Below, one piece after another: positions 1,699 to 38,578 of a stretch of DNA of 64,000 nucleotides. The DNA lies in IMG/VR virus record IMGVR_UViG_3300042542_004122, positions 8,162 to 72,161 of that record; one strand, 5' to 3'. Made by a program: the position numbers and the translations under genes. The DNA is from a virus. The notes beneath the pieces were generated by a model. That model ran no database searches. It saw only the letters and a list, made by a program, of their open reading frames with translations, and was not told where the DNA came from. Position 1 is the stretch's first letter; each line of letters begins with the position of its first letter.

Positions 1699-2004
1699 TC
1701 ACCTTTCGGCTGAGACTTTCTTCCTCAAGGGAATTACCTCGTGGCAATGTTCACGATATAGTCTAGGTAGATCCCTGGGACACTCGACGTCAGCTTTCCA
1801 AACTGGGGCTAGGCGCTTAGCTTTCAAGGCTGTTGCGACTAGTCTACCCATTTCATACTGCATCTGACTAGAAAAATCTAAGAGGTCATATCCTTTAGCC
1901 CACGGGAGACCTAGATATGCGTGCTGGTAACCTATCTTAAAAGGGTAGTTACCTTTGAAATAATTTCGATCAGCTTTTACAAGCCTGACTTTACTGTTGA
2001 ACAT
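1699..2004 (-). CDS. hypothetical protein (probably leaderless)
   Basis: 101-aa ORF; ATG lies 6 nt after a TATAAT box. Confidence 0.7.
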   Translation of the reverse strand: MFNSKVRLVKADRNYFKGNYPFKIGYQHAYLGLPWAKGYDLLDFSSQMQYEMGRLVATALKAKRLAPVWKADVECPRDLPRLYREHCHEVIPLRKKVSAER

Positions 2005-2010
2005 TTTTAT

Positions 2011-2039
2011 ATTATATCTTTTTTAGGTATAATAAGCAA
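2011..2039 (-). promoter_or_regulatory. sigma70-type promoter TTGCTT-N17-TATAAT
   Basis: Read directly; the same TTGCT(A/T)-N17 architecture recurs across the window. Confidence 0.75.
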
Positions 2040-2057
2040 GAACTATATAAAAACAAA

Positions 2058-2131
2058 TGGCGACCTTAGAGAGAATTGAACTCTCGACACCTGTTAGACA
2101 GACAGGGATTTTACCACTAAACTATAAGGCC
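2058..2131 (-). tRNA. tRNA-Asp(GTC)
   Basis: Cloverleaf, anticodon arm CCTGT-CTGTCTA-ACAGG, encoded CCA. Confidence 0.9.
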
Positions 2132-2132
2132 T

Positions 2133-2208
2133 TGGTGTCCCGAGTCAGACTCGAACTGACAGAAAACGATTTTTGAGAACGTCGCGTTTACCTTTTCGCC
2201 ATCGGGAC
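2133..2208 (-). tRNA. tRNA-Leu(CAA), short variable arm
   Basis: Anticodon loop CTCAAAA, Leu-type D-arm, 3' ACCA, no long V-arm. Confidence 0.8.
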
Positions 2209-2210
2209 AT

Positions 2211-2241
2211 AAAAAAGGGACGAGATTACTCTCGTCCCCTT
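2211..2241 (-). terminator. rho-independent terminator
   Basis: GGGACGAG-AGTAAT-CTCGTCCC followed by T6 on the minus strand. Confidence 0.8.
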
Positions 2242-2261
2242 AGTATGGACTGAGAATTATC

Positions 2262-2708
2262 TCAGAACTTTAGAGCAATACCAGCGGTAACGCTCTCTCT
2301 AAGATCGTTGTTATCAACGGAGTTGACCCTACGATAACGTAGATCTAGGTCTAGAGTCTTAGTTAGTTCGGTACGAACTCCAGCTCCTAGGACATAGAGA
2401 GGCTTACTATCTAGAGACTCTAGATCAGCCCCTAGACCTACTAGAACATAGGGAGTAATCCCAGTTGTAGGAATAGTAGCCTGAGGCATTACATGACCGT
2501 AAAGGTTATGCACCTTGCTGTCGACACGATACTCATAAGCACCCTCTACACGAAGATTCTTATTTAGATCTGTTCCAACAGCTAGGCCTAGGGTATTTTC
2601 CCTAGCTCCCTCTACCTGAGTTCCTAGATTACCAGCAACATATACGTCACCAGCTAGGGCAGAACTTGCAGCTAGAGAAGCTACAAGCGCGATTACATAC
2701 TTATTCAT
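2262..2708 (-). CDS. outer-membrane beta-barrel protein (OmpA/Opa-like)
   Basis: Signal peptide, amphipathic beta strands, LRVEG, PYVLVGLG, C-terminal Phe. Confidence 0.8.
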   Translation of the reverse strand: MNKYVIALVASLAASSALAGDVYVAGNLGTQVEGARENTLGLAVGTDLNKNLRVEGAYEYRVDSKVHNLYGHVMPQATIPTTGITPYVLVGLGADLESLDSKPLYVLGAGVRTELTKTLDLDLRYRRVNSVDNNDLRESVTAGIALKF

Positions 2709-2730
2709 TTATTTTTTCTTTCTCCTGATT

Positions 2731-2805
2731 TGGAAGCCCTGACCGGATTTGCACCGGCGTTGACGCCTTGAGAGGGCGTTATCCTAACTACTAGATGACA
2801 GGGCC
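2731..2805 (-). tRNA. tRNA-Glu(CTC)
   Basis: Anticodon arm ACGCC-CTCTCAA-GGCGT, CCA end. Confidence 0.85.
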
Positions 2806-2809
2806 GTTT

Positions 2810-2901
2810 TGGTGGAGGCTACTCGACTTGCACAAGTTGTCCGGACTACCCCTACTGTTTAAGGACGCCCGTTTTACAGACGGGTGTAGGGAATAGCCTC
2901 C
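2810..2901 (-). tRNA. atypical D-armless tRNA-Tyr(GTA)-like RNA with V-loop pseudoknot
   Basis: Acceptor GGAGGCT/AGCCTCC plus ACCA; anticodon arm CCCGT-CTGTAAA-ACGGG; T-arm ACTTG-TGCAAGT-CGAGT. No D hairpin, and CCCTAC is complementary to GTAGGG in the 30-nt variable region. Confidence 0.75.
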
Positions 2902-2912
2902 ATGTTATTTAC

Positions 2913-2941
2913 ATTTTATCAAAAGCTTAACCATATAGCAA
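2913..2941 (-). promoter_or_regulatory. promoter TTGCTA-N17-TAAAAT for the Tyr-like RNA
   Basis: Read directly, just upstream of the RNA. Confidence 0.6.
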
Positions 2942-2942
2942 C

Positions 2943-3362
2943 TTATTTTTTATCTAAGTTAGACCAGTTAAGTATTTGATCTAAGGTCGTCGAGTATAAA
3001 CCATATTTTGTTACTAGTTTATGAACTCTAGGGGCGATGGTATGTCTGAATAACATCTCCTCTTTGCGACTTTTTTCGACTAGAGAATAAGGTTTACCGG
3101 CAATATAAGCTCTCGCTAATTCCGTTGCGCGAGATTCATTTCTGACATCCCATCTACGATGGGTTATCAACCCTAATCGTTTAATATGCAGACCATATAG
3201 TTCACGATGTTTTTTATATACTGTATCGGAATGAAGGTCTTCAGTTATTTGATGATAGACCTTATAGTGGTCGATCTGTTTTTTAAGCTTGCGCTCTTCT
3301 CGTTTAATAATGCTAGGCTCAAACGCAAGATGCTTAGCTTTAATTTTTAGTTCTATACTCAT
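2943..3362 (-). CDS. basic hypothetical protein, possible RNA-binding partner
   Basis: 139 aa, K/R/H-rich (LKIKAKHL...HRRWDVRNESRATELARAYIAGKPY); GAGGAG RBS. Confidence 0.85.
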   Translation of the reverse strand: MSIELKIKAKHLAFEPSIIKREERKLKKQIDHYKVYHQITEDLHSDTVYKKHRELYGLHIKRLGLITHRRWDVRNESRATELARAYIAGKPYSLVEKSRKEEMLFRHTIAPRVHKLVTKYGLYSTTLDQILNWSNLDKK

Positions 3363-3377
3363 AGAATCTCCTCTTTT

Positions 3378-3443
3378 TTATAGTTTATAGTTGGAAAAGA
3401 GAAGATTAGGAGGCCCTCTGGCCTAGGCTGTCTGCTTAAACAT
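3378..3443 (-). promoter_or_regulatory. amber-interrupted leader peptide / translational attenuator (MFKQTA*ARGPPNLLFSNYKL*)
   Basis: GAGGA RBS and ATG at 3443; in-frame TAG at 3423-3425; RGPP codons; AATCTTCTCTTTT can pair with AAAAGAGGAGATT over the downstream SD. Confidence 0.7.
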
Positions 3444-3456
3444 GTTTCCTCAAATT

Positions 3457-3530
3457 TGGTGCCTCTCAGGGGATTTGAACCCCTCTACTCCGTTTTAGAG
3501 ACGGTCGCATAGCCACTCTGCCAGAGAGAC
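3457..3530 (-). tRNA. amber suppressor tRNA (anticodon CTA)
   Basis: GTCTCTC/GAGAGGC acceptor plus ACCA, D-arm GGCAGAGTGGCTATGC, anticodon arm CCGT-CTCTAAA-ACGG, T-arm AGGGG-TTCAAAT-CCCCT. Confidence 0.85.
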
Positions 3531-3540
3531 GTATTTAAAT

Positions 3541-3616
3541 TGGCTCCCCCGGTTCGATTCGAACGAACGACATTCTGATTAACAGTCAGATGCAACTACC
3601 GCTGTGCTACAGGGGA
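3541..3616 (-). tRNA. tRNA-Asn(GTT)
   Basis: Cloverleaf, loop CTGTTAA, CCA. Confidence 0.9.
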
Positions 3617-3623
3617 ATATAAA

Positions 3624-3698
3624 TGGAGCGGACGATGGGGATCGAACCCACGACATACACGTTGGCAACGTGCAACTCTACCGCTGAGCTACGTCCGC
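3624..3698 (-). tRNA. tRNA-Gly(GCC)
   Basis: Cloverleaf, loop TTGCCAA, CCA. Confidence 0.92.
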
Positions 3699-3699
3699 A

Positions 3700-4212
3700 T
3701 TAATTTTGTGGTAAAAGAGAAGTAGGAGGACCTAAAGTAGTCTGCCCCCACCTATCTGATGGCCACATAGGAAGAACTGTTTGAGGTTTAGACTTTGCTT
3801 TAATAAGCGCAGCCATTTCCTTATATCCATCCGCAGTAGGATGAATACCGTCCTTACCTAATTTAACTGTCTCAATTAGTGTATCACTAAACATTGTTGA
3901 CAAAGATTGCACAACATAGTTAGCTTCCTTATTACAGAATATATCATTACAAGGAGGATTAATCCAAATAATATTTGAAGATTTAATCTTATCTCGTACA
4001 GATAGAATTTGCAATAACTGTTCTTGTAGAGTTAACCCTTTATCATTTGTTCCTAGGCTAACTACTACAGTAGCAGCTTTTAGATCTACATGACCGAAGG
4101 TTTTACTCCAGTTAGAACTACTAATACCAACAACACTATAATTTTTACATTCAGGATAAGCCATACTTATCCCTTTGGCAATACTATCGCCTAGAATAAT
4201 GCATTCTAACAT
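3700..4212 (-). CDS. SGNH/GDSL hydrolase
   Basis: LGDS, LGTND and DGIHP blocks. Start moved to MLEC because the track's extension overlaps tRNA-Gly. Confidence 0.85.
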   Translation of the reverse strand: MLECIILGDSIAKGISMAYPECKNYSVVGISSSNWSKTFGHVDLKAATVVVSLGTNDKGLTLQEQLLQILSVRDKIKSSNIIWINPPCNDIFCNKEANYVVQSLSTMFSDTLIETVKLGKDGIHPTADGYKEMAALIKAKSKPQTVLPMWPSDRWGQTTLGPPTSLLPQN

Positions 4213-4215
4213 AAT

Positions 4216-4289
4216 TGGAGCGGAGTACGAGATTCGAACTCGTTTAGCCAGCTTGGAAGGCTGGAGCACAACCTATATGCCAACTCCGC
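4216..4289 (-). tRNA. tRNA-Gly(TCC)
   Basis: Cloverleaf, loop CTTCCAA, CCA. Confidence 0.9.
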
Positions 4290-4298
4290 GTAATACGC

Positions 4299-4333
4299 TT
4301 AAATATGTAGTAAGATACCTACTACATATTTAA
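4299..4333. repeat. 14-bp inverted repeat between tRNAs
   Basis: TTAAATATGTAGTA-N7-TACTACATATTTAA. Confidence 0.8.
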
Positions 4334-4339
4334 AAGTAT

Positions 4340-4413
4340 TGGCTGGGGAAGATGGATTCGAACCACCGTAGACGGTACCAAAGACCGCCGTCCTACCGCT
4401 AGACGATTCCCCA
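4340..4413 (-). tRNA. tRNA-Gln(TTG)
   Basis: Cloverleaf, loop CTTTGGT, CCA. Confidence 0.9.
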
Positions 4414-4419
4414 ATAAAC

Positions 4420-4493
4420 TGGTTGACCTTTATGGACTCGAACCACAACTAGCCGGTTCAGAGCCGGATGTCCTACCATTAGACGAAAGGTCA
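4420..4493 (-). tRNA. tRNA-Gln(CTG)
   Basis: Cloverleaf, loop CTCTGAA, CCA. Confidence 0.9.
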
Positions 4494-4644
4494 ATATAGC
4501 TAGCTATCACGTCTTAGCTAGCACTGTCAGTATTTCGACTTGTCGCGACAAGTATCTGACTATTGACTGAAAAACCTTCTTTCTGGAAAATACAGCCCAA
4601 CACTATGTTGGTCTCAATAATGAAAAATAAGGTTAGTCAGTCGG

Positions 4645-4722
4645 TATACACACAAGCGTGACTCCAACACGCATTTTCGAGTTAAAGGCTCGACGTCCTA
4701 TGGTTAGACGACAGTGTGTATA
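4645..4722 (-). ncRNA. degenerate tRNA-like element (loop CCTTTAA, no CCA)
   Basis: Gln-like D-arm, TCGAG/CTCGA anticodon stem, GCGTG/CACGC T-stem, extended TATACACAC/GTGTGTATA stem. Confidence 0.5.
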
Positions 4723-4723
4723 T

Positions 4724-4798
4724 TGGTGGACCCTAAGAGATTTGAACTCTTAACCCCCGCCGTGCAAAGGCGATGCTCTCCCGTTGAGCTAAGGGCCC
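4724..4798 (-). tRNA. tRNA-Ala(TGC)
   Basis: Cloverleaf with G3:U70, loop TTTGCAC, CCA. Confidence 0.92.
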
Positions 4799-4804
4799 TT
4801 TATA

Positions 4805-4944
4805 TTAGAACGATTCTGAGTAGAATAGGCCGGCTCAGACTAGGCGCTAGATCCGCGCATACCGCGGTGGAGGTGGAGGTGGGTGGGTATGCGATCGTTC
4901 AACTGTATTGCTGAACCTCACGTATCGGTTCGAATGTCTTCTAG
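4805..4944 (-). ncRNA. candidate structured sRNA with anti-Shine-Dalgarno loop
   Basis: Several hairpins, including GCATACC-(CACCCACCTCCACCTCCACCGC)-GGTATGC; no convincing ORF. Confidence 0.5.
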
Positions 4945-4990
4945 AATTACGACTTTGGGCTTAAGGGCTAGTATCTAGATAGAACGTAGA

Positions 4991-5155
4991 TCAGTGCTGG
5001 AACTGAGGGCGGTGACGCACCAGGGTGCACTTGTAATGGACGGGTCGAGACTCCTCTAGAGCGTAGACCTTATCGAGAAACAGCTGAGCCTCGGCGAGGC
5101 TATCAAACTTACGGAGCTGCTTCATATTCTTAATTGTATCTGCAATCTTCATCAT
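4991..5155 (-). CDS. small hypothetical protein (54 aa, leaderless)
   Basis: MMKIADTIKNMKQLRKFDSLAEAQLFLDKVY...; ATG 6 nt after TTGCTA-N17-TATAAT (5162-5190). Confidence 0.55.
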   Translation of the reverse strand: MMKIADTIKNMKQLRKFDSLAEAQLFLDKVYALEESRPVHYKCTLVRHRPQFQH

Positions 5156-6189: not shown

Positions 6190-7215
6190 TTACTTCATTG
6201 GTGTTAGTGTAAGAGCATTTTTACGCACAAGTTCTCTCTGTGTTTTCGTCAATGGCACTAGACCCTTTTTTTCAAGGTATCCATTCTCAGCCATGGAACG
6301 ATCTGAAACATACTCAGCTATGAAATCTCTAATGCCAGGAATAACTTCAGCATGAGCATTCTTGACATAGACAAACAAGGAACGAGCGACTGGATATTTC
6401 TGTGTAGAGATATTTTCAAACTCTGGCTCTACCTCATCAATCTTTAATCCAATAAGCTTGTCTACGTTTTCTTCCAAGAACGAGTATCCAAAGACTCCAA
6501 TAATTAGATTGTTCTTGTTAGAAACCAGTCTCTGAACAATTAGATTATCATTTTCACCCGCCTCAATGAATTTGCCATCTTCACGAATTGAAGAGCAGGC
6601 AGCTTGCTTCTGTCTTGCATCCTGCAGAGACTTGATTTCATCGAAACTCTTGCAGCCATGATCCATTACCATTTCAACAAATGCATCGCGCGTCCCAGAA
6701 GTTGGAGGAGGACCCATGACTTCAATTGGAGCGTTTGGTAGTTTAGGATCAATCTCATTCCATTTCTGGTAGAAATTATTTACAAGCTTACCGTCCTTTG
6801 GCACCTGACGAGCCAAAGCAAGCCAAACGTGTTCGCGTGTCAAACTAAAAGGCTTTACATCCTTGCGAACCGCAAATACGATGCCATCATATCCAATCAT
6901 TACTTCAGTAATGCTCGTTACACCATTTTTGGCGCAAAGTTCAATTTCTGATTTTGTGATCGGACGAGACGCATTTGAAATGTCTGGGTGTTGTGTTCCT
7001 ATACCTGCACAAAACAGACGAAATCCACCACCCGTTCCAGTAGATTCTACAATAGGCGCCTTCAGACCTGATGTTCGACTGAAATTTTCAGCAACCGTTG
7101 TAGTAAATGGAAAAACTGTCGATGATCCAACAGCACGAATTTGATCTCTTGCGTTTTGTGCATATGCCGTAGTACTAATTAATAAAATTGTAGTAGCTGT
7201 GATTAGTAATTTCAA
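6190..7215 (-). CDS. pstS: phosphate ABC transporter substrate-binding protein
   Basis: Signal peptide, GSSTVFP, STGTGGG, GPPPTSGTRDAF, YPVARSLFVYVK. Confidence 0.95.
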   Translation of the reverse strand: MKLLITATTILLISTTAYAQNARDQIRAVGSSTVFPFTTTVAENFSRTSGLKAPIVESTGTGGGFRLFCAGIGTQHPDISNASRPITKSEIELCAKNGVTSITEVMIGYDGIVFAVRKDVKPFSLTREHVWLALARQVPKDGKLVNNFYQKWNEIDPKLPNAPIEVMGPPPTSGTRDAFVEMVMDHGCKSFDEIKSLQDARQKQAACSSIREDGKFIEAGENDNLIVQRLVSNKNNLIIGVFGYSFLEENVDKLIGLKIDEVEPEFENISTQKYPVARSLFVYVKNAHAEVIPGIRDFIAEYVSDRSMAENGYLEKKGLVPLTKTQRELVRKNALTLTPMK

Positions 7216-8252: not shown

Positions 8253-8570
8253 CTAAATACTAAAAGACTTCCCACACCCACATCCAGCTTTTTGATTCGG
8301 GTTTTTAAGTTTCAAACCGCTGCTTCCAATAGTCTGTTCGTAATCTAACTCTGTCCCAGCTACATATAGTAAACTCATACTGTCTACAAAAAACTTACAA
8401 GTTAAAAGATCTATCTCAAAGTCATCAGGTTCTGCACTATCTACAAATTCATAGTTATACACAAAACCAGAACATCCTCCGCCCTTGACTTCTAATTTAA
8501 CCGCCTGCTTATTGTTTTCTTTGCATAGATACCTAATATAATCTCTAGCGATGGGAGTTAAGCTAAACAT
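8253..8570 (-). CDS. iscA: IscA/HesB A-type Fe-S carrier
   Basis: GGGCSG and NPNQKAGCGCGKSF. Confidence 0.9.
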   Translation of the reverse strand: MFSLTPIARDYIRYLCKENNKQAVKLEVKGGGCSGFVYNYEFVDSAEPDDFEIDLLTCKFFVDSMSLLYVAGTELDYEQTIGSSGLKLKNPNQKAGCGCGKSFSI

Positions 8571-10056
8571 TTTGTTTTTTGTAAATTGTATTGCCTACTA
8601 CCAACACATCTATGTCTGTTGATTTAAATAAGTTCATGGCATTCTCAATCCAGCCTGCTATAGGTTTTCCTGCTTCGTTAAGGCTTGTGTTTAATAATAA
8701 AGGGCACCCCGATAGTTCATGGAAAACTTCTAACAATTTTCTAAAAGCATAGTCAAACGATTCATTGACAGTTTGAGCGCGACAAGTTCCGTCGACATGA
8801 GTTATAGCTTGTAAATTATCTTTTTGTGTTGTGCCTAGATAAAGCATATACGGATTTTCAAAATCTAGATCAAAATATTCTTTGCCATACTCTTGCAAAA
8901 CACTAGCTCCAAAAGGTCTGTAGTACTCTCTATTTTTAACCCTATTAATTATATCTTTTCCATTTTTAATTCTTGGGTCCATTAGTATAGATCTGTGCCC
9001 TAATGCTCGTGGACCTATCTCACCATGTCCTTGATACCATGCAACAATTTTACCTTCATTTAAAAATTTAGCTGTTTGATATATGGTATCAATAGTAGGT
9101 TGGCTATGTGGAGACTGATCAGACTGCATGAATGGATATCTAGACATATTAAACTTAGGTAAATTTTTTGATTGTCTAAATAGTTCAAGTGTTCCAAAAG
9201 TTAATCCCTCATCGCTGCAATGTGGATATATTATGAGATTGGGGTATTTTTTCTTTAACAACGTATTCCAAACAACATTTTGTGCTACTCCACCTGAATA
9301 GCCTATTCTCTCATGCGGTTTGAAATGTTTTTCAAAAAATTCTAGTAGTAATTCGCCTATTCTAAAATGAATAGTGTGAGCAATATCTAATTTTTGTTGC
9401 AGAGGTAATGTTCTATCAACAAAATATAAATGATCGTCAGATGCAACTGTCCATTTCCAAGGTCTGTCTTTACGCATACCTTTAACTGCAGTGCTAGTAT
9501 AGTTCATGTTGTACTTTAAAAGATTTTCATAATGTTTCAAATTTAATCTACCATAACTTTGCCAACCCATAAGTTTACCCGCAAGATCAAGGCCATGACC
9601 TTCAATATCTAAATAATTTGCTATTATCCCCAAACCGTCGCCAAAACTTACGCCAGAATTAGAGGTAAGTATTTGGCTTATAATTTTATCATCTCTAAAA
9701 ATGCTACACCAAAGATCAGCGTTATCCCCTAATCCATCAACTACTACATGAGCATCTATTTTTTCTTTTTCTAATATCTCTACACTATATGCATGCTTTC
9801 TATGATGCCCTTGATACTTTTGATGTTCTGAGTAGCTAATATCTAAAAAGTTACCATTATATTTATTTTTACAATAAACAGCAATAAAATCTTGAATTTG
9901 AAATTCAACAGCGGACTTGCCAGTAATATAAAATCCAAAATGTTTATTTTGTAAAAGCCTTTCAAATTTTAAATAGCCTACTTTAGTATTAAAATAAGCT
10001 ATGGAAGCATCATGATAAGGATGTGATGCTACTATGCTTAACATAATTTCTTGCAC
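8563..10056 (-). CDS. NodU/CmcH-family carbamoyltransferase
   Basis: HDAS, HHRKHA, AGKLMG, EIGPRALGHRSIL, KNREYYRPFG, HVDGTCRAQ, LNTSLN. Confidence 0.92.
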   Translation of the reverse strand: MQEIMLSIVASHPYHDASIAYFNTKVGYLKFERLLQNKHFGFYITGKSAVEFQIQDFIAVYCKNKYNGNFLDISYSEHQKYQGHHRKHAYSVEILEKEKIDAHVVVDGLGDNADLWCSIFRDDKIISQILTSNSGVSFGDGLGIIANYLDIEGHGLDLAGKLMGWQSYGRLNLKHYENLLKYNMNYTSTAVKGMRKDRPWKWTVASDDHLYFVDRTLPLQQKLDIAHTIHFRIGELLLEFFEKHFKPHERIGYSGGVAQNVVWNTLLKKKYPNLIIYPHCSDEGLTFGTLELFRQSKNLPKFNMSRYPFMQSDQSPHSQPTIDTIYQTAKFLNEGKIVAWYQGHGEIGPRALGHRSILMDPRIKNGKDIINRVKNREYYRPFGASVLQEYGKEYFDLDFENPYMLYLGTTQKDNLQAITHVDGTCRAQTVNESFDYAFRKLLEVFHELSGCPLLLNTSLNEAGKPIAGWIENAMNLFKSTDIDVLVVGNTIYKKQNV

Positions 10057-15096: not shown

Positions 15097-15190
15097 TGGT
15101 AGTCCCACCAGGATTCGAACCTGGACTGCTCTCTAATCTGGAGACAATGCCGAATATAAGTCGGGTGTTCTACCGTTAAACTATGGGACC
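15097..15190 (-). tRNA. tRNA-Ile(TAT) with long extra arm
   Basis: CCGA-CTTATAT-TCGG, then an insertion of about 23 nt before the T-arm; ACCA. Confidence 0.75.
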
Positions 15191-16045: not shown

Positions 16046-16890
16046 GGAAAGCTGAGATTACACTTTCTATATTAGCACTTCAAGAGGTACCCTCTATTTG
16101 CAGTAGAGGTTTTCTTGACATCCACCAGATGCCTGCTAAGGTCACCCAGTATACCAACAGTATCGCCTTTTAAAGTCTGGCAGTAGACTTGACGTTATAC
16201 GCTACTCTATATTATACCGTCCGCTGACCTTGCGAGCCATTAAGCCTTGCGAGCTACGAATTTTTTAATATAAACTGATTTCACCTTGCGGGTTACATCA
16301 GACCAAGTTCTCTTTCGAGCTTGGTATTAGATACCTTTCACATATAACCGAGGCAGACTTTGCTTTTTTAAAACATTGACTGGATTTGAACCAGCGTCCG
16401 TTTGCTTCCAACGCAAATGCTCATCCACTGAGCTACAATAATAACCTACTGCGATGTGCTGCCTCGTTGCTCCGTATGGTTTTGACATACAAAATACAAC
16501 ACACCACGTATCTTTCGCGACGCGCGCTACTCGATCGTATTTTGCGACGATGTATAAGCATTTATAGCTTATCCACTACCGCTGATACTGCAAAAATGCC
16601 TTTAGTTGCTTAAACTTCAGACAGAGATGCTACCCTTTGTTCTACCAACTGCTAGATTGGTGTTGTAGTGAAGTCGGCACCACCCGTTACATTCCAATAA
16701 CTTAGGTTCCCCTTTCGGGCCTATAAGCTATCGTTTTCTCACTACACCTAGTTCATTGTTACCTCCGTTGCCGAAGGCTAGGAACTGGGCTTGCTTAAGT
16801 GGGCCACTCGGAGAGTGGTGCGGTTATGTAGGGATTACCGCTTTTATCACATTACTGTGACTATCCTTATGGGGCTTAAGCGCCCCAACT
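16046..16890 (-). ncRNA. GOLLD-like giant structured ncRNA (~840 nt)
   Basis: No credible ORF; GC-richer segment in a phage tRNA cluster; many GCAA/GAAA tetraloop hairpins; embedded tRNA-like domain; own promoter and terminator. Confidence 0.72.
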
Positions 16891-17335: not shown

Positions 17336-17411
17336 TGGTGCCCCAGACAAGACTTGCACTTGTTTCCTTACCCTTACCAAGGGTCTGTTCAGCTATATGA
17401 ACTTCAGGGGC
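17336..17411 (-). tRNA. tRNA-Thr(GGT)
   Basis: Loop TTGGTAA, ACCA. Confidence 0.85.
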
Positions 17412-17990: not shown

Positions 17991-18080
17991 TGGCGGAGTG
18001 ATGGCGGAATCGAACCCCTGGCCCGTAGGCTCCAACCGCTTTCAAGGCGGTGCTAGTATCCCCGACTAGACATGCACTCC
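17991..18080 (-). tRNA. tRNA-Ser(TGA), atypical (allo-tRNA-like)
   Basis: ACCGC-CTTGAAA-GCGGT, 5-bp D-stem CTAGT/ACTAG, long V-arm, irregular acceptor/T junction, GCCA. Confidence 0.78.
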
Positions 18081-26764: not shown

Positions 26765-27746
26765 AGCAAGAATAGGAGATGTAACAGAGCTTAACGGACA
26801 GGCGTCTGTTACAAGAAATAAAAAAGAACAACCTATAGGCATTCGAGACGGTATCGAATCTATGGACACTATCTCTACTAAAAATTCAAAGGTTAGGATA
26901 GATTTTATTGACAAAACCCACGTTAGTGTAACTGAGCATAGTGACTTAGAAATAGATGAGTATGTTTTTGATCCTTCTAGAGATTTAGCAAAATTATCTA
27001 TGAAAGTATCTTCTGGCACTGTACAATATGCAAGCGGACTTTTAGCAAAAAAAGTAGGAGCTGTAGATGTTAGAACTCCTACTGCTTCTATAGCAGTTAG
27101 AGGTACAGAATTTTCTATGAGTGTCAATGAGTTAGGTAAAAGTTTGATTATGCTTTTACCTAACCAAGATGGAAGCACAGGAGAAATTACCGTTAGCACA
27201 GACGTTGCAAGCGTTATTCTAAATAGAAGTTATCAAGCTACTATAGTGACTAGCAGCTCTAGTCCGCCTTCAAATCCACTTATTCTTAATATGTTAGGCA
27301 GAGTAATAAATAATGATTTACTGCTGTCCATGCCGAAATCTGTAGAAACAGTTTCTAATGTCGAAAAAGAACAAGGTCCATTGGATTTTGACCTTAAATT
27401 TGTAGACGTAAATATGCTGGATAAAGATCCTCTTAAATTTGAAGAACTGAATGTAGACCTGCTAAAGTCTGATTTTTTCAATACTAGATTAAACAATATA
27501 GATTCAATTTTTGATAATTTTAGTGAACGAGATGGTCAAGTGACTGGATATAATCCAACTACACAAATTAATACAGTAGTAGAAGACACTACCGTATTAA
27601 CCCAAAGATTAGATATTTCTATATTTTCTGTAAAAGTTAATAAAGATTATGGATTAAAAATCGAATACAATGGCGATGGTATCTCTGCTGCGTTTGTAGC
27701 TGGAAATATGCAATCCAACAGTATTTTAAAGGTTAAGCAAAAATGA
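26697..27746 (+). CDS. FecR-domain protein
   Basis: IGDVTELNG, F.DKT...TEHS.L.IDEY, VRTPTASIAVRGTEF. Confidence 0.85.
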   Translation: MQKLSILLLTVIISQLLYLKQTEARIGDVTELNGQASVTRNKKEQPIGIRDGIESMDTISTKNSKVRIDFIDKTHVSVTEHSDLEIDEYVFDPSRDLAKLSMKVSSGTVQYASGLLAKKVGAVDVRTPTASIAVRGTEFSMSVNELGKSLIMLLPNQDGSTGEITVSTDVASVILNRSYQATIVTSSSSPPSNPLILNMLGRVINNDLLLSMPKSVETVSNVEKEQGPLDFDLKFVDVNMLDKDPLKFEELNVDLLKSDFFNTRLNNIDSIFDNFSERDGQVTGYNPTTQINTVVEDTTVLTQRLDISIFSVKVNKDYGLKIEYNGDGISAAFVAGNMQSNSILKVKQK

Positions 27747-29797
27747 AAAAAGTAATCATTACTTTACTAACAATCGCAATAGGTATCGGTATAAAGATAT
27801 ACGAGCCTAATATAGTAGAAATTTTAAAACTCAAAGGATTTGATCAGTTATTAACTTTAAATGATACTAAAACTAGTGAAACAGCCGTAATAATAGAAAT
27901 TGATGAGCCTACAATAGAGCAACAAGGTCAATGGCCTTGGCCAAGAGATTTAATAGCAGATGGTATTAAAAAAGCTGTAGATCATGGAGCTGAGATTGTA
28001 GTTCTATATCCGCTTTTTGCAGAAAAAGATAGATTTAATAAAGATGAAATACTTAAAGAGGTTATAACAAATAGTAAGGTCATAGGAACGCAATCTGCTT
28101 CTTTAAAAGGGAAAGGAGATCTAGTAACTAGAGGTTTTGCTATCGTAGGAAATACAGAAGAACAATGGTTTTATAGGTATCAAAACGGAATAGGTAGTAT
28201 TTCTGAAATATCTAAAACAGCTCAAGGTATGGGTATGATTACTACAGTCCCAGAACTAGATGGAGTAACTAGAAAAATACCTTTAGTGTTAATGGTTGGT
28301 GATAAGTTCTATCCTTCTTTACCTTTAGAAATAGCAAGAGTAATACATGGGGCTAAAAATTATAGAGCAAAAGTTACTGAGGCGGGATTATCTAGCATAT
28401 ATATCAATAAGAATTTTTCCATAGAACCAGATAAGCGCGGAGAGTTATGGATAGATTGGTCTTGGACCTGGCCTATTAAAAGTTGGAAAGAGGAATCTTG
28501 GGGAGACTTGACAGGTAAAATAGCTATTTTAGCTATAAACGTAGAGGGAATTACTAATACTATTGCAACCCCTGCAGGCACTAAACTAGGTCATGAAGTT
28601 AGTTTAGCTGCATGGGAAACTCTATGGAACGATAATAAAATAACTAGACCTTATTGGGCAGATTTAACTGAGCTTTTATTTTTCTGTCTGTTGATAGCAG
28701 TCAGTGCTCTCGTTGCTGATAAAGGAAATAAATTACTCGTAGGAGTATGGGGAGTAGTTATACTACTAGTTCCATTTAGTATAAGTTACTACGTCTTTAA
28801 TCAATATCAATATTTAACTGATTGGACATTTAGTTTAGTATTTGGAACACTGTTCTATGGATATGTCGTGTATTCTAGATTTGTTAAAGAGTTTAAACTA
28901 AAGCAACAAATCAAGAAACAATTCCAATCTTATCTTTCAAAGGCTCTTGTGGAAAAACTCCAGAAGAATCCAGAGCTATTAAAGCTTGGCGGAGATAGCA
29001 GAGAGCTGTCAATCATGTTCACAGACGTTCGTGGGTTTACCTCTATCAGCGAACACTATGGTGAGAATGTTCAAGGATTAACCCAAATCATGAATCGCTA
29101 TATGACAGCGATGACTGCAAAAATTCTTGAGAATGAAGGAACGCTTGATAAGTATATTGGCGATGCACAGATGGCATTTTGGAATGCGCCGCTTGATGAC
29201 AAGCAGCACGCCAAGAATGCAGTTAAAACAGCTTTAAGTATGTTAGGAGATTTAGATGAATTCAACAGAAGTATTGCGGCTGAAGGCGTCCCTCCTTTCG
29301 GCATGGGCCTTGGTATCAATACCGGTATGGTTGTTGTTGGAAATATGGGCAGCGATCAACGTTTCGATTATACTTGCCTCGGTGATGCTGTCAATCTTGC
29401 TAGTCGTCTCGAAGGACAAAGCAAACCGTATGGAGTCAAATTAGTCATTGGTTCAAAGACAGCAGAGTATGTTTCAGATGAATATTTTATATTAGAACTG
29501 GACACTATTGCGGTAAAAGGTAAAAAACAAGGAGTTAATATCTATACTGTTTTAGGCACTAATAAAGAGATAGATGATTTAGGTTTTTCTTATGCAAGAA
29601 AAGATCATAACGATATGTTAGATTATTATAGAAATAAAAACTTCACTAGTGCTACCGTATTGTGCGAAAGATTAACGAAAGCATTTAAAGGCGATATGAA
29701 ATCATACTACGAAATGATGATGGATCGTTGTCGTGAGTATACAAAAACCCCGCCACCAGCTAACTGGGACGGGGTTTACAGAGCTACTAGTAAATAG
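27743..29797 (+). CDS. CHASE2-domain class III adenylate cyclase
   Basis: GQWPWPR and DGVTRKIPL (CHASE2), TM helices, FTDVRGFT, DKYIGDA, GDAVNLASRLE. Confidence 0.92.
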   Translation: MKKVIITLLTIAIGIGIKIYEPNIVEILKLKGFDQLLTLNDTKTSETAVIIEIDEPTIEQQGQWPWPRDLIADGIKKAVDHGAEIVVLYPLFAEKDRFNKDEILKEVITNSKVIGTQSASLKGKGDLVTRGFAIVGNTEEQWFYRYQNGIGSISEISKTAQGMGMITTVPELDGVTRKIPLVLMVGDKFYPSLPLEIARVIHGAKNYRAKVTEAGLSSIYINKNFSIEPDKRGELWIDWSWTWPIKSWKEESWGDLTGKIAILAINVEGITNTIATPAGTKLGHEVSLAAWETLWNDNKITRPYWADLTELLFFCLLIAVSALVADKGNKLLVGVWGVVILLVPFSISYYVFNQYQYLTDWTFSLVFGTLFYGYVVYSRFVKEFKLKQQIKKQFQSYLSKALVEKLQKNPELLKLGGDSRELSIMFTDVRGFTSISEHYGENVQGLTQIMNRYMTAMTAKILENEGTLDKYIGDAQMAFWNAPLDDKQHAKNAVKTALSMLGDLDEFNRSIAAEGVPPFGMGLGINTGMVVVGNMGSDQRFDYTCLGDAVNLASRLEGQSKPYGVKLVIGSKTAEYVSDEYFILELDTIAVKGKKQGVNIYTVLGTNKEIDDLGFSYARKDHNDMLDYYRNKNFTSATVLCERLTKAFKGDMKSYYEMMMDRCREYTKTPPPANWDGVYRATSK

Positions 29798-38125: not shown

Positions 38126-38311
38126 GTGTTTCAACTAAAACATAACTACTTTAAAGGTCAAGTCGTAGAATTTAGTTATAATTACTGGTCCATCTATAAT
38201 GAGGCTGGTAAGCTAATTCTGACTACTAAAGATAAAAAATATGCTGAGGCTAAATTGCAACAACTAAATAAGGCTTTAGCAGACAAGATCTCGTTGATAG
38301 CAGCGAAATAA
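38126..38311 (+). CDS. hypothetical protein
   Basis: 61-aa ORF; 3' end overlaps the tmRNA acceptor piece. Confidence 0.4.
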   Translation: MFQLKHNYFKGQVVEFSYNYWSIYNEAGKLILTTKDKKYAEAKLQQLNKALADKISLIAAK

Positions 38312-38556
38312 GCATACTGGACACGGGGGCAGTGCCCGTCATCTCCACCATAAATATGTCGATTAGTAAACATTGACATATTTATAATGGGGATGAATTA
38401 GGATCGACAGGTGTGTAAAGGTTGAAGTAGAGATAGGTGCGCGAGCGACCTCTAATCGCAAGAAATCAATAAATGCTAACGATAATAGCATCGAAGAGAT
38501 CCGCCTAGCGGCATAACTTCTGCGGTATGGGCTCCACCGTATTACCCAACGGGCCT
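38270..38556 (+). ncRNA. ssrA: circularly permuted two-piece tmRNA
   Basis: Acceptor piece ends ...GACACGGGGGCAGTGCCCGTCATCTCCACCA at 38350; hairpin spacer; coding piece starts GGGGATGAATTAGGATCGAC at 38389; tag ANDNSIEEIRLAA* at 38475-38516. Outer ends approximate. Confidence 0.9.
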
Positions 38557-38578
38557 ATTCCTTTTAGAAAGATTTTTA

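What the first reader, a model, noticed from the sequence alone, without database searches (positions are those of the whole stretch)
2810..2901. tRNA-Tyr-like RNA whose D-stem appears rebuilt by a pseudoknot with the variable loop
Seen: only 10 nt (ATTCCCTACA) lie between the acceptor and anticodon stems. The 30-nt variable region forms GTCC/GGAC, and its loop GTAGGGG can pair with TCCCTAC. Acceptor, A73-CCA, anticodon and T arms are intact, it has its own promoter, and it is the only Tyr-anticodon gene in this window. Inference: a topologically rewired tRNA or tRNA mimic (nuclease-resistant tRNA, decoy, or protein-assisted tRNA) that standard scanners would likely miss or call a pseudogene.
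Basis: partly seen in the sequence, partly recalled or inferred. Interest (0 to 1): 0.8.

Follow-up and report, generated by a model that had tools for sequence, protein, structure and literature searches.

The report
Rewired pseudoknotted phage tyrosine tRNA
This lake-phage gene encodes a tyrosine transfer RNA whose D arm is rebuilt by pairing with its own variable loop, one member of a widespread, unannotated phage tRNA family that standard tRNA finders miss.

Summary
Window 2901..2810 (minus strand) is a 92-nt RNA with an acceptor stem, A73-CCA, a GUA anticodon arm and a T arm. It has no D hairpin. ARAGORN and Rfam do not call it.

An architecture-only pattern search, BLAST and a covariance model recovered 41 distinct relatives. 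They come from IMG/VR contigs, metagenomes and four GenBank phage records. Three of those records are cultured phages: Pseudomonas phages Rembedalsseter and SCYZ1, and Rhizobium phage RHph_N3_2. None is annotated at the site.

Two crossing helices covary. The 5' strand CCCUAC pairs with GUAGGG in the variable region: 99.6% of cells paired, and 5 of 6 pairs change on both sides. A 3-5-bp stem, GUCC/GGAC in the window, encloses the GUAGGG strand. An eighth acceptor pair is formed in 41 of 41, giving an 8/4 acceptor/T branch.

In 32 of 34 loci no canonical tRNA-Tyr is called. Two complete phage genomes hold no other tRNA-like gene. The same scaffold also carries UCU and CCA anticodons.

It is most likely a working tRNA-Tyr. 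Escape from tRNA-cutting defences is plausible but untested. Six literature searches found no description.

The parts
2810..2901 (-). Whole 92-nt tRNA-Tyr(GUA)-like gene with encoded CCA. RNA position p corresponds to window coordinate 2902-p.
   Evidence: Sequence read. Covariance model R1 scores it 81.5 bits, E 2e-17. Not called by ARAGORN or Rfam.
2894..2901 (-). Acceptor stem 5' strand, RNA 1-8 (GGAGGCUA). The eighth position, A8, can pair with U81.
   Evidence: Pairs 1-7 and the eighth pair are formed in 99.1% of cells. The eighth pair is formed in 41 of 41 members with 5 pair types.
2886..2892 (-). 5' strand of the rebuilt D-like helix, RNA 10-16 (UCCCUAC).
   Evidence: The helix at alignment columns 11-16 with 52-57 is 99.6% paired, and 5 of 6 pairs change on both sides. 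RNAalifold also predicts it on a MAFFT alignment.
2868..2884 (-). Anticodon arm, RNA 18-34: stem CCCGU/ACGGG, loop CUGUAAA. The anticodon GUA lies at window 2875-2877.
   Evidence: Sequence. The stem is 98.5% paired and 5 of 5 pairs change on both sides.
2863..2866 (-). 5' strand of the short variable stem, RNA 36-39 (GUCC).
   Evidence: Pairs with GGAC. L261 carries GUCU/AGAC, a change on both sides. A 3-5-bp stem is found at this place in 41 of 41 members, with 21 different strand pairs.
2849..2855 (-). 3' strand of the rebuilt D-like helix, RNA 47-53 (GUAGGGG), lying inside the loop of the variable stem.
2843..2848 (-). Linker UAGUCC, RNA 54-59. It occupies the place of the family's conserved UGG-YU, which I propose stands in for the D-loop G18-G19 that contacts the T loop.
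   Evidence: G and U columns after the helix are invariant or nearly so. The D-loop role is inference only.
2839..2842 (-). 3' strand of the variable stem, RNA 60-63 (GGAC). It closes the pseudoknot.
2821..2837 (-). T arm, RNA 65-81: ACUUG-UGCAAGU-CGAGU. It reads as 5 bp, or as 4 bp if A8 takes U81.
   Evidence: Sequence. The same unusual T loop occurs in other tRNAs of this window. The inner pairs covary in the family.
2810..2820 (-). Acceptor 3' strand AGCCUCC (RNA 82-88), discriminator A89 and the encoded CCA.
2913..2941 (-). Sigma-70-like promoter TTGCTA-17 nt-TAAAAT with a TG, ending 11 nt upstream of the RNA's first base.
   Evidence: 1 site found against 0.9 expected by chance. Related hexamers are retained in the diverged flanks of L261 and L263, by my reading of the printed flanks.

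Best explanation
The gene encodes the phage's tRNA-Tyr in a non-cloverleaf architecture.

**Shown:**
- The RNA belongs to a conserved, structured family.
- The family has an 8-bp acceptor stem plus a 4-bp T stem, which keeps the usual 12-bp branch.
- It has a normal anticodon arm.
- It has no D hairpin.
- It has two crossing helices.

**Helix 1.** The strand right after the acceptor stem (CCCUAC) pairs with GUAGGG in the variable region. This makes a 6-bp helix that abuts the anticodon stem.

**Helix 2.** A 3-5-bp variable stem (GUCC/GGAC in the window) encloses that GUAGGG strand in its loop. The two helices therefore form a pseudoknot.

Compared with a class II tRNA-Tyr, the 5' strand of the D stem plus the D loop appear to have been moved into the variable loop.

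**Inferred:**
- Helix 1 stacks on the anticodon stem as the D stem normally does.
- The conserved UGG after it (UAG in the window) plays the role of G18-G19 against the T loop, so an L shape results.
- RNase P and the other usual tRNA-processing enzymes mature the RNA.
- Host TyrRS charges it, using A73, G34-U35 and the variable stem.
- It then decodes UAY codons.

**More speculative:** the rewired D and variable region makes the tRNA a poor substrate for tRNA-directed defence nucleases. The model here is the PtuAB nucleases of Septu and retron-Eco7, which cut the variable arm of tRNA-Tyr. The phage could then keep translating when host tRNA-Tyr is destroyed.

The confidence of 0.75 is for "functional decoding tRNA-Tyr with this pseudoknotted fold". 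I put the fold itself at about 0.95 and the defence-escape rationale at about 0.35-0.4.
For: **How the family was found.** A pattern that fixed only GGAG, the anticodon loop 18 nt later, and CTCCACCA, and left the D and variable regions free, returned 71 viral loci. These were L003 plus 70 others. Of the 70, 40 have the architecture, with 26 distinct sequences, and 30 are chance matches.

**Separation from ordinary tRNAs.**
- Model R1 scores the 47 family hits at 61.5 bits or more, and ordinary tRNAs at 37.7 bits or less.
- The Arg and Trp forms found later score 46.5-60.4 bits.
- One hit at 35.8 bits is ambiguous.

**Covariation on 41 distinct members.**
- 97.5% of cells are paired, against 72.2% in shuffles; 0 of 500 shuffles reached the observed value.
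- The D-like helix is 99.6% paired, and 5 of 6 pairs change on both sides.
- The eighth acceptor pair is formed in 41 of 41, with 5 pair types.
- Sliding the partners by 1-3 columns drops pairing to 36-52%.

**Checks for alignment bias.**
- The helix is seen on a structure-blind MAFFT alignment: 93.1% paired, 4 of 6 pairs with double changes.
- RNAalifold predicts it de novo.

**Variable stem.**
- It is 3-5 bp in 41 of 41 members, with 21 different strand pairs.
- On the 30-member alignment the mean best helix was 4.47 bp, against 3.71 +/- 0.15 in 2,000 shuffles, with a maximum of 4.23.

**The window's own lineage.**
- L261 has C39U with G60A, which is compensatory in GUCC/GGAC. Its other 2 changes lie in loops.
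- The RNA is 96% identical to L261 and 99% identical to L263.
- The neighbouring segments are far less conserved: flanking ORF DNA 62-87%, the upstream spacer 71-74%, and the neighbouring tRNA-Glu 80-82%.

**Gap filling.**
- ARAGORN calls no canonical tRNA-Tyr in 32 of 34 loci that hold the family's Tyr form.
- These include arrays with 19 other tRNA types: the window, L072, L082 and L105.
- 0 of 7 loci with the UCU or CCA forms have a canonical tRNA with that anticodon.

**Complete phage genomes.** In PQ464593.1 and MN988526.1 this is the only tRNA-like gene. Rfam's tRNA model finds nothing above its cut-off.

**Identity elements track the anticodon.**
- The 4 Tyr forms found without a pattern that forces the 3' end all end in ACCA.
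- The CCA-anticodon form has A1-U72 and G73.
- Both match the bacterial identity sets listed in PMC9976931 (passages read).

**T loop.** The window's odd T loop UGCAAGU also occurs in another tRNA of the window.

**Defence precedent.** Passages of PMC13096335 state that Septu and retron-Eco7 cut the variable loop or stem of E. coli tRNA-Tyr. They also state that T5 tRNA-Tyr resists because of its distinctive variable loop.
Against: - No direct evidence exists for transcription, processing, charging or decoding. RNA-library contigs cover the region but cannot show transcription.
- Thermodynamic folding of the window RNA alone prefers an 11-bp extended acceptor helix and a different hairpin. That fold scores -34.2 kcal/mol against -28.5 kcal/mol, and the pair probabilities of the proposed helices are low.
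- Constancy of GGAG, the GUA loop and CTCCACCA in 40 of the family loci was imposed by the search pattern. Those parts therefore say nothing about conservation.
- The window RNA departs from the family. It has UAG rather than UGG after the helix, an A17/C35 mismatch where most members have a pair, and a T loop with G at the position of U55.
- Two of 34 loci (L110, L278) also carry a canonical tRNA-Tyr, so the form is not always the sole Tyr tRNA.
- L083 and L137 have two mismatches in the acceptor stem.
- The 3D model (stacking, and UGG contacting the T loop) is inference. No RNA 3D tool was available.
- The defence-escape idea rests only on analogy and on the gene's solitary presence in small phages.
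- No TyrRS gene is found in the record. Charging would depend on the unidentified host's enzyme.
Confidence: 0.75

Rival explanations
1. It is a structured tRNA-like RNA that is not used for decoding. It could be a decoy or sponge for a tRNA-directed nuclease or another tRNA-binding protein. It could also be a regulatory RNA that keeps tRNA-like ends so it can be processed.
For: It is the only tRNA-like gene in two 43-45-kb phages. That fits poorly with codon supplementation. [quoted passage not shown] The core is non-canonical and charging was not tested.
Against: - The anticodon loop is fully canonical.
- Discriminator and first-pair identity elements change with the anticodon, for Tyr against Trp.
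- The RNA fills exactly the missing isoacceptor in large arrays: 32 of 34 Tyr loci and 7 of 7 Arg or Trp loci.
- The 12-bp acceptor/T branch that, per the introduction of PMC5389517, EF-Tu recognises is preserved through covariation.
Confidence: 0.15
2. It is a decaying tRNA-Tyr pseudogene. A rearrangement destroyed the D arm, and the complementarity with the variable region is a coincidence.
For: No scanner calls it. Within the single sequence the complementarity occurs in 2-3% of shuffles.
Against: - The RNA is 96-99% identical between phages whose flanks are 62-87% identical.
- Both helices covary in 41 distinct sequences from unrelated phages, including cultured ones.
- A compensatory change occurs within the window's own lineage.
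Confidence: 0.02
3. The RNA adopts the minimum-free-energy fold instead. That fold has an 11-bp helix ending in ACCA, a long hairpin over positions 31-60 and no T arm. It would act as a minihelix-type RNA rather than an L-shaped tRNA.
For: The fold has MFE -34.2 kcal/mol and z-score -2.85. Pair probabilities for positions 8-11 with 78-81 are 0.98 or higher. Three of the four changes seen in relatives (U40C, C58U, C39U) are also tolerated by this fold.
Against: - G60A in L261 breaks C31-G60 of this fold, yet it is compensated in the pseudoknot model.
- In the family the ninth acceptor pair forms in only 6 of 30 members.
- The T-arm sequence GGUUCGAUUCC is conserved in the family, and the inner T-stem pairs covary.
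- RNAalifold does not recover the long hairpin.
Confidence: 0.05
4. It is a tRNA that folds or functions only with a dedicated phage-encoded protein, such as a chaperone or a dedicated synthetase.
For: The core is unusual. The neighbouring 139-aa ORF has no Pfam family.
Against: No TyrRS-family gene is in the record. Gene neighbourhoods differ completely between family members: tRNA arrays in some, and a position next to terS in the Pseudomonas phages. Homologues of the 139-aa ORF sit beside canonical arrays that lack this RNA.
Confidence: 0.03

Closest known systems
(8/4) tRNA-Ser, (8/4) tRNA-His and allo-tRNAs, including those in tRNA clusters of alpha-proteobacterial phages (Mukai et al. 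2017, PMC5389517; abstract and passages read)
   Same: The 12-bp acceptor/T branch is split 8/4. There is a long (6-bp) D-type helix. Most members have a 6-bp anticodon stem. A variable stem is present. They occur in phage tRNA gene clusters and are missed or mis-scored by standard tools. The window also holds a probable tRNA of this allo kind with a Ser anticodon.
   Different: In allo-tRNAs the D stem is an ordinary hairpin with a tetraloop. Here its 5' strand lies in the variable loop, which creates a pseudoknot. No Tyr, Arg or Trp member and no pseudoknot is mentioned in the text I could read. The word 'pseudoknot' occurs 0 times in that paper.
Canonical bacterial-type class II tRNA-Tyr, as carried by related phages (L006-L023)
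   Same: GUA anticodon in a CUGUAAA loop, A73-CCA, a G1-C72 start and a short GCC/GGC-type variable stem. The acceptor stem is almost the same as the window's: GGAGGCA in L006 and L011 against GGAGGCU.
   Different: The canonical form has a D hairpin and a closed variable hairpin, and ARAGORN finds it. The window RNA has neither hairpin. Only the strand corresponding to the 3' half of the D stem remains in place.
D-armless mitochondrial tRNAs such as mt-tRNA-Ser(AGY) (review PMC7609411, passages read)
   Same: No D hairpin, and a short connector between the acceptor and anticodon stems.
   Different: The mitochondrial forms are reduced by loss and depend on adapted partners. Here the length is that of a full class II tRNA (86-94 nt), and the D helix is restored in trans by the variable loop.
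Plant-virus tRNA-like structures (TYMV and BMV TLS; passage in PMC9976931)
   Same: tRNA-shaped RNAs of viruses that use a pseudoknot and a non-standard backbone path. The BMV TLS has tyrosine identity.
   Different: As I recall it, the TLS pseudoknot builds the acceptor arm at the 3' end of an RNA genome, and these structures are not decoding adaptors. Here the pseudoknot is in the D and variable core of a free-standing gene that sits in tRNA arrays.
Phage T5 tRNA-Ty, which escapes PtuAB of retron-Eco7 and Septu (PMC11555353 and PMC13096335, passages read)
   Same: A phage-encoded tRNA-Tyr whose altered variable region is reported to protect it from a defence nuclease that cuts the variable arm of host tRNA-Tyr.
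   Different: I did not examine the T5 tRNA. As far as those passages describe it, it differs in its variable loop and no rewired core is mentioned. Resistance of the present family is not tested.
tRNA-like domain of tmRNA
   Same: Acceptor stem, T arm and ACCA without a D hairpin. A T-loop pattern taken from the window RNA retrieved phage tmRNA 3' ends.
   Different: The window RNA has A3-U70 rather than G3.U70 and a full anticodon arm. No Rfam tmRNA model hits it. The long linker lies on the 3' side rather than the 5' side of the long helix.

Membership tests
tRNA (cloverleaf; Rfam RF00005) | Acceptor stem with a single-stranded NCCA end | tested here: met
   Positions 1-7 pair with 82-88, followed by A-CCA. 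The stem covaries in the family.
tRNA (cloverleaf; Rfam RF00005) | Anticodon arm: 5-bp stem and 7-nt loop with U33 and a purine at position 37 | tested here: met
   CCCGU-CUGUAAA-ACGGG. The stem is 98.5% paired, with 5 of 5 pairs covarying.
tRNA (cloverleaf; Rfam RF00005) | T arm with a 7-nt T loop | tested here: met
   ACUUG-UGCAAGU-CGAGU. The loop is atypical, with G where U55 is usual, but other tRNAs of the window share it.
tRNA (cloverleaf; Rfam RF00005) | D arm as a local hairpin between the acceptor and anticodon stems | tested here: not met
   Only 10 nt lie there. The partner strand sits 30 nt downstream of the anticodon arm.
tRNA (cloverleaf; Rfam RF00005) | Reaches the family's gathering score or is called by a tRNA finder | tested here: not met
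   There is no RF00005 match even at E up to 10. ARAGORN makes no call. A relative scores 26.3 bits against a cut-off of 29.
tRNA (cloverleaf; Rfam RF00005) | Aminoacylation and decoding | not testable with these tools
   Only indirect evidence is available: gap filling in arrays and identity elements.
Bacterial tRNA-Tyr identity | A73 with G34 and U35 (set as listed in PMC9976931) | tested here: met
   A89 is the discriminator and the anticodon is GUA. The 4 Tyr forms found without a constraint on the 3' end also end in ACCA.
Bacterial tRNA-Tyr identity | Class II long variable arm as a closed hairpin | tested here: inconclusive
   A 4-bp stem, GUCC/GGAC, exists and covaries. However, its 20-nt loop is engaged in the other helix.
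(8/4) allo-type tRNAs (PMC5389517) | 8-bp acceptor stem and 4-bp T stem, 12 bp in all | tested here: met
   The eighth pair is formed in 41 of 41 members, with 5 pair types. The outer T pair of a 7/5 reading is formed in only 8 of 30. In the window RNA itself both 7/5 and 8/4 are possible, because U81 can pair with A8 or with A65.
(8/4) allo-type tRNAs (PMC5389517) | Long D stem closed by a tetraloop (hairpin) | tested here: not met
   The 6-bp helix is formed with a strand from the variable loop.
D-armless mitochondrial tRNAs | D arm replaced by a short unpaired connector with no substitute helix | tested here: not met
   The connector is paired, with covariation, to the variable region.
tmRNA tRNA-like domain | G3.U70 alanine identity, no anticodon arm, and a match to tmRNA models | tested here: not met
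   The RNA has A3-U86, which corresponds to 3:70. An anticodon arm is present. There is no tmRNA model hit at E up to 10.

The most novel reading that the evidence does not exclude
This is a general, phage-borne alternative tRNA architecture. The 5' D-stem strand and the D loop have been transposed into the variable loop. This gives a pseudoknotted core on an 8/4 acceptor/T branch.

At least three identities use it: Tyr-GUA, Arg-UCU and Trp-CCA. It remains a substrate for host synthetases, EF-Tu and the ribosome, and no annotation pipeline sees it.

On this reading it has been selected because it escapes host tRNA-directed defence nucleases that recognise or cut the D and variable region, such as PtuAB of Septu and retron-Eco7 acting on tRNA-Tyr. 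That would explain why some 43-47-kb phages carry it as their only tRNA.
Probability: 0.35. Interest if true: 0.95.

Novelty: new variant of a known kind. Interest (0 to 1): 0.86.

Why it matters
**For tRNA biology.** If these RNAs are charged and decode, the cloverleaf connectivity is not obligatory for a cytosolic-type bacterial tRNA. The same helices could then be wired in a different order through a pseudoknot. That would bear on how synthetases, RNase P, EF-Tu, modification enzymes and the ribosome read tRNA shape, and it would offer a new scaffold for orthogonal tRNA design.

**For annotation.** Phage tRNA repertoires are being under-counted. In these sequences ARAGORN made no call at any of the family sites examined, and Rfam's tRNA model scored the one relative it reported below its cut-off. 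Four GenBank phage records carry the gene with no annotation at the site.

**For phage-host conflict.** tRNA-Tyr is a documented target of Septu and retron defences. A structurally disguised tRNA-Tyr, carried alone by small phages, is a directly testable counter-defence candidate in cultured Pseudomonas and Rhizobium phage systems.

Tried and rejected
**Searches that found no family member or nothing new**
- BLAST of window 2000-5000 against GenBank phages gave only tRNA-sized hits to ordinary tRNAs.
- BLAST of L077 gave no match. BLAST of the window RNA gave one weak hit, E 0.8, in the record later confirmed through another query.
- The exact 24-mer search found only the near-identical contig L003.
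- The pattern TCCCTACA-N5-CTGTAAA gave 19 loci, of which 18 were chance matches.
- The 17-nt anticodon-arm search gave 5 loci. Four were ordinary tRNA-Tyr genes of other phages.
- The T-loop/acceptor pattern gave 21 loci. Twenty were 3' ends that look like tmRNA by my reading, with no model run on them. This raised and then dismissed a tmRNA-derived reading.
None of the 120 was a family member. This is not evidence of absence from cellular genomes.

**Relatives found through the neighbouring gene**
- Homologues of the upstream 139-aa ORF led to 23 related loci.
- ARAGORN, run on 19 of them, called canonical tRNA-Tyr genes in 12.
- Model R1, run on 22 of the 23 (the other overlaps L003), found no pseudoknotted form.

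**Expression**
- Contigs from four RNA libraries (X15-X18) cover window 2608-3215 and beyond, including the RNA. They carry one difference inside it, 2896 G>A, which is C6U and keeps a U.G pair.
- The tool states that such contigs do not show transcription and may hold DNA. I count this as no evidence either way.

**Other negatives**
- No TyrRS-family gene (PF00579) was found in the 72-kb record, which is about 67% complete.

**Literature**
- Six searches found no description of a tRNA whose D stem is formed with the variable loop.
- Two papers on non-canonical tRNAs, read as passages only, do not mention one: PMC5389517 and PMC7609411.
- The paper on phage Rembedalsseter reports no tRNA for that phage (PMC11780129, passages).
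- Supplementary Figures S2 and S3 of PMC5389517 show manually folded phage tRNA clusters. I could not see them, and they may already include such a tRNA.

**Tools and steps not available**
- I did not examine the ACAGCA-motif elements in relatives.
Full report
**What is at the site**

On the minus strand, window 2901..2810 reads as a 92-nt RNA. Its parts in order are:

| Part | RNA positions | Sequence |
|---|---|---|
| Acceptor 5' strand | 1-7 | GGAGGCU |
| Connector | 8-17 | AUUCCCUACA |
| Anticodon stem | 18-22 / 30-34 | CCCGU / ACGGG |
| Anticodon loop | 23-29 | CUGUAAA (anticodon GUA) |
| Variable region | 35-64 | 30 nt |
| T arm | 65-81 | ACUUG-UGCAAGU-CGAGU |
| Acceptor 3' strand | 82-88 | AGCCUCC |
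| 3' end | 89-92 | A-CCA |

Inside the variable region, GUCC (36-39) and GGAC (60-63) can pair. Between them, GUAGGGG (47-53) is complementary to UCCCUAC (10-16).

ARAGORN finds 28 tRNAs and a tmRNA in the window, and nothing here. Rfam finds nothing here at gathering thresholds, or at E up to 10 on 2650-3050.

A sigma-70-like site lies just upstream: TTGCTA, 17 nt, TAAAAT, with a TG. The scan found one site against 0.9 expected by chance.

Taken alone, the RNA is not convincing. The complementarity arises in 2-3% of shuffles. ViennaRNA prefers a fold with an 11-bp terminal helix, at -34.2 kcal/mol against -28.5 kcal/mol for the rewired fold.

**Context**

The window is bases 8162-72161 of a 72-kb IMG/VR virus record, about 67% complete. 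It occurs in lake-water metagenomes.

It carries:
- replication genes: family A DNA polymerase, NAD-dependent ligase and a helicase;
- a PstS-like protein and a carbamoyltransferase;
- a GOLLD RNA and a permuted tmRNA;
- tRNA arrays, all on the minus strand.

The called tRNAs cover 18 amino acids plus a CUA suppressor. Tyr and Ser are missing. The other 8.3 kb of the record has no tRNA.

**Finding relatives**

Exact-word searches found only a 98%-identical contig, L003.

Homologues of the upstream 139-aa ORF led to 23 related loci. ARAGORN, run on 19 of them, called ordinary class II tRNA-Tyr genes in 12. Some have almost the same acceptor stem as the window RNA: GGAGGCA in L006 and L011 against GGAGGCU. 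So the window gene is a relative of ordinary phage tRNA-Tyr with a different middle.

I then searched for the architecture rather than the sequence. The pattern was GGAG, then the loop CTGTAAA 16-20 nt later, which is too close for a D arm to fit, then CTCCACCA 49-65 nt later. Everything else was left free.

Of the 70 loci returned besides L003, 40 show the same layout, with 26 distinct sequences. The other 30 are chance matches.

A more specific pattern in metagenome contigs gave five more copies of the window's own type.

A covariance model, R1, built from 29 sequences separates the family from ordinary tRNAs. The 47 family hits score 61.5 bits or more, and ordinary tRNAs 37.7 bits or less. 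The Arg and Trp forms found later score 46.5-60.4 bits. One hit at 35.8 bits is ambiguous.

BLAST with family members then found four GenBank phage records with strong model hits. In none is anything annotated at the site, and ARAGORN calls none of them.

| Phage | Accession | R1 score (bits) |
|---|---|---|
| Pseudomonas phage Rembedalsseter | PQ464593.1 | 85.6 |
| Pseudomonas phage SCYZ1 | MH518298.3 | 82.1 |
| Rhizobium phage RHph_N3_2 | MN988526.1 | 74.8 |
| Marine Zobellviridae phage genome | PQ867846.1 | 55.3 |

**Structure**

On the model-based alignment of 41 distinct members, a structure with four nested helices was scored. The helices are the 8-bp acceptor stem, the D-like helix, the anticodon stem and a 4-bp T stem.
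- 97.5% of cells are paired, against 72.2% in shuffles; 0 of 500 shuffles reached the observed value.
- With partners slid by 1-3 columns, pairing falls to 36-52%.
- The D-like helix (CCCUAC/GUAGGG in the window) is 99.6% paired, and 5 of 6 pairs change on both sides. Examples from the sequences are CCCAAC/GUUGGG, CCCUGC/GCAGGG, CUACAC/GUGUAG, CCACUC/GAGUGG and CCCGCG/CGCGGG.

Because the search pattern left these positions free, this covariation was not imposed by how the sequences were found.

It is also not an alignment artefact. On a plain MAFFT alignment the helix is 93.1% paired, with 4 of 6 pairs changed on both sides. RNAalifold predicts it de novo on that alignment.

The second helix crosses the first.
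- A 3-5-bp stem is present just after the anticodon stem in 41 of 41 members, with 21 different strand pairs. Examples are UGCC/GGCA, UACCU/AGGUA, CUGCA/UGCAG, CGUC/GACG and GUCC/GGAC. Three of the Arg forms have weak 3-bp versions.
- On the 30-member alignment, the mean best helix was 4.47 bp, against 3.71 +/- 0.15 in 2,000 shuffles, with a maximum of 4.23.
- In the window's own lineage, contig L261 changes GUCC/GGAC to GUCU/AGAC. Its other two changes fall in loops.

Two refinements follow from the family.
- Position 8 pairs with the base that a 7/5 reading would give to the T stem. This pair forms in 41 of 41 members, with five pair types. The 7/5 outer T pair forms in only 8 of 30. The family therefore has the 8/4 branch described for some phage tRNAs (PMC5389517). 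In the window RNA both readings are possible.
- In most members the base after the D-like strand pairs with the base after the anticodon stem. The D-like helix and a 6-bp anticodon stem then form one continuous arm. The window has an A/C mismatch there.

**How the topology compares with a normal tRNA (inference)**

In a cloverleaf, the 3' strand of the D stem runs on into the 5' strand of the anticodon stem.

Here the 5' strand of the D-like helix sits where the D stem's 3' strand normally does. Its partner comes from the variable loop. That partner is followed by a conserved UGG (UAG in the window), then 2-3 nt, then the 3' strand of the variable stem.

The simplest description is that the D stem's 5' strand plus the D loop, with its GG, have been moved into the variable loop. 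Related canonical phage tRNA-Tyr genes have a GCC-UUAU-GGC variable hairpin and a UGGU in the D loop, which fits that origin. The helices needed for an L shape are all there. Only the connectivity differs.

**Is it functional?**

The window RNA is the best-conserved segment of its neighbourhood.

| Segment | Identity to L261 | Identity to L263 |
|---|---|---|
| The RNA (92 nt) | 96% | 99% |
| Flanking ORF DNA | 62% and 76% | 87% and 65% |
| Upstream spacer | 71% | 74% |
| Adjacent tRNA-Glu | 82% | 80% |

ARAGORN calls no canonical tRNA-Tyr in 32 of 34 loci that hold the Tyr form. These include arrays with 19 other tRNA types. Two loci have both forms.

In the complete genomes of Rembedalsseter and RHph_N3_2 it is the only tRNA-like gene.

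A scan that excluded G34 anticodons found the same scaffold with other anticodons (also 84).
- UCU: five contigs here, plus the GenBank record PQ867846.1 found by BLAST, six loci in all.
- CCA: one contig.

In 0 of those 7 loci is a canonical tRNA with that anticodon called.

The CCA form has A1-U72 and G73. The four Tyr forms found without constraint on the 3' end have A73. These are the bacterial Trp and Tyr identity sets listed in PMC9976931.

This pattern is what decoding tRNAs show, not pseudogenes. A decoy would have little reason to show it.

No direct evidence of expression was obtained. RNA-library contigs cover the site but cannot prove transcription.

**Why would phages do this? (speculative)**

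Passages of PMC13096335 and PMC11555353 state three things:
- PtuAB nucleases of Septu and retron-Eco7 deplete host tRNA-Tyr by cutting its variable arm.
- T5 and T6 counter this with their own tRNA-Tyr.
- The T5 tRNA resists because of a distinctive variable loop.

A tRNA-Tyr whose variable loop is locked into a pseudoknot with the D strand, carried as the only tRNA by 43-45-kb phages, fits that arms race. Nothing here tests it. The Arg and Trp versions suggest the advantage may not be specific to tRNA-Tyr.

**Novelty**

Six full-text searches found no description of such a tRNA. The two most relevant papers, read as passages, do not mention it (PMC5389517, PMC7609411). The Rembedalsseter paper reports no tRNA for that phage.

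The authors of PMC5389517 folded phage tRNA clusters by hand and reported only 8/4 tRNA-Ser and tRNA-His in the text.

I file this as a new variant of a known kind: a tRNA with a new, pseudoknotted connectivity.

**Verdict**

- The rewired-tRNA interpretation is supported.
- The fold is very likely, at about 0.95.
- A decoding tRNA-Tyr is likely, at about 0.75.
- Defence escape is an attractive, testable hypothesis, at about 0.35-0.4.

Cultured phage-host pairs exist for every decisive experiment.

Noticed in passing
window 17995-18080 (-): A sub-threshold Rfam tRNA-Sec-like match (36 bits, cut-off 47). It has the anticodon loop CUUGAAA (UGA, Ser) and a GCCA end, and ARAGORN does not call it. 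It is probably an allo- or 8/4-type tRNA-Ser that fills the window's missing Ser.
   Followed up: partly
window 17339-17411 (-): A tRNA found by Rfam (43 bits) but not by ARAGORN. Its anticodon is GGU (Thr), and its T loop UGCAAGU is the same unusual loop as in the Tyr RNA.
   Followed up: partly
L270 791-878; L271 7872-7957; L273 7325-7411; L275 1115-1200; L279 6418-6504; L283 6391-6478; L278 3512-3603: The same pseudoknotted 8/4 scaffold carries anticodon UCU (Arg, six loci) and CCA (Trp, one locus, with A1-U72 and G73). ARAGORN calls none of them, and none is accompanied by a canonical tRNA with that anticodon.
   Followed up: partly
window 3457-3530 (-) and loci L005-L026: A tRNA with a CUA (amber-suppressor) anticodon, which ARAGORN labels 'Pyl', lies close to the 139-aa ORF. 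A CTA tRNA was called in 19 of 19 related loci scanned. I did not examine whether these phages recode TAG.
   Followed up: no
window 16049-16507 (-): A GOLLD RNA (205 bits) sits inside the tRNA array, with a tRNA-Pro (16371-16442) within its span.
   Followed up: no
window 38258-38607 (+): A permuted, alpha-proteobacterial-type tmRNA with the tag ANDNSIEEIRLAA. The family loci L077 and L092 also carry permuted tmRNAs. This hints at alpha-proteobacterial hosts.
   Followed up: partly
window 15097-15190 (-); also L010, L011, L012, L023, L072, L082: Unusually long (92-95 nt) tRNA-Ile(UAU) genes recur in these phages.
   Followed up: no
L009 about 4440-4640, and the same place in L013, L014, L016, L017: Downstream of a tRNA-Met lie hairpins that share an ACAGCA motif. 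There is also an odd element with a CUGUAAA loop, a normal T arm and a 9-nt insert before the 3' acceptor strand. This is unexplained.
   Followed up: no
L049-L068: By my reading, twenty viral contigs end a tmRNA-like 3' domain with the T loop GUGCAAGUC and CCUCCACCA. That is the same T-loop variant as in the window's Tyr RNA. No tmRNA model was run on them.
   Followed up: no
window 27743-29797 (+); 6190-7215 (-); 8563-10056 (-): The phage carries a CHASE2-sensor adenylate/guanylate cyclase, a PstS-like phosphate-binding protein and a carbamoyltransferase as auxiliary genes.
   Followed up: no
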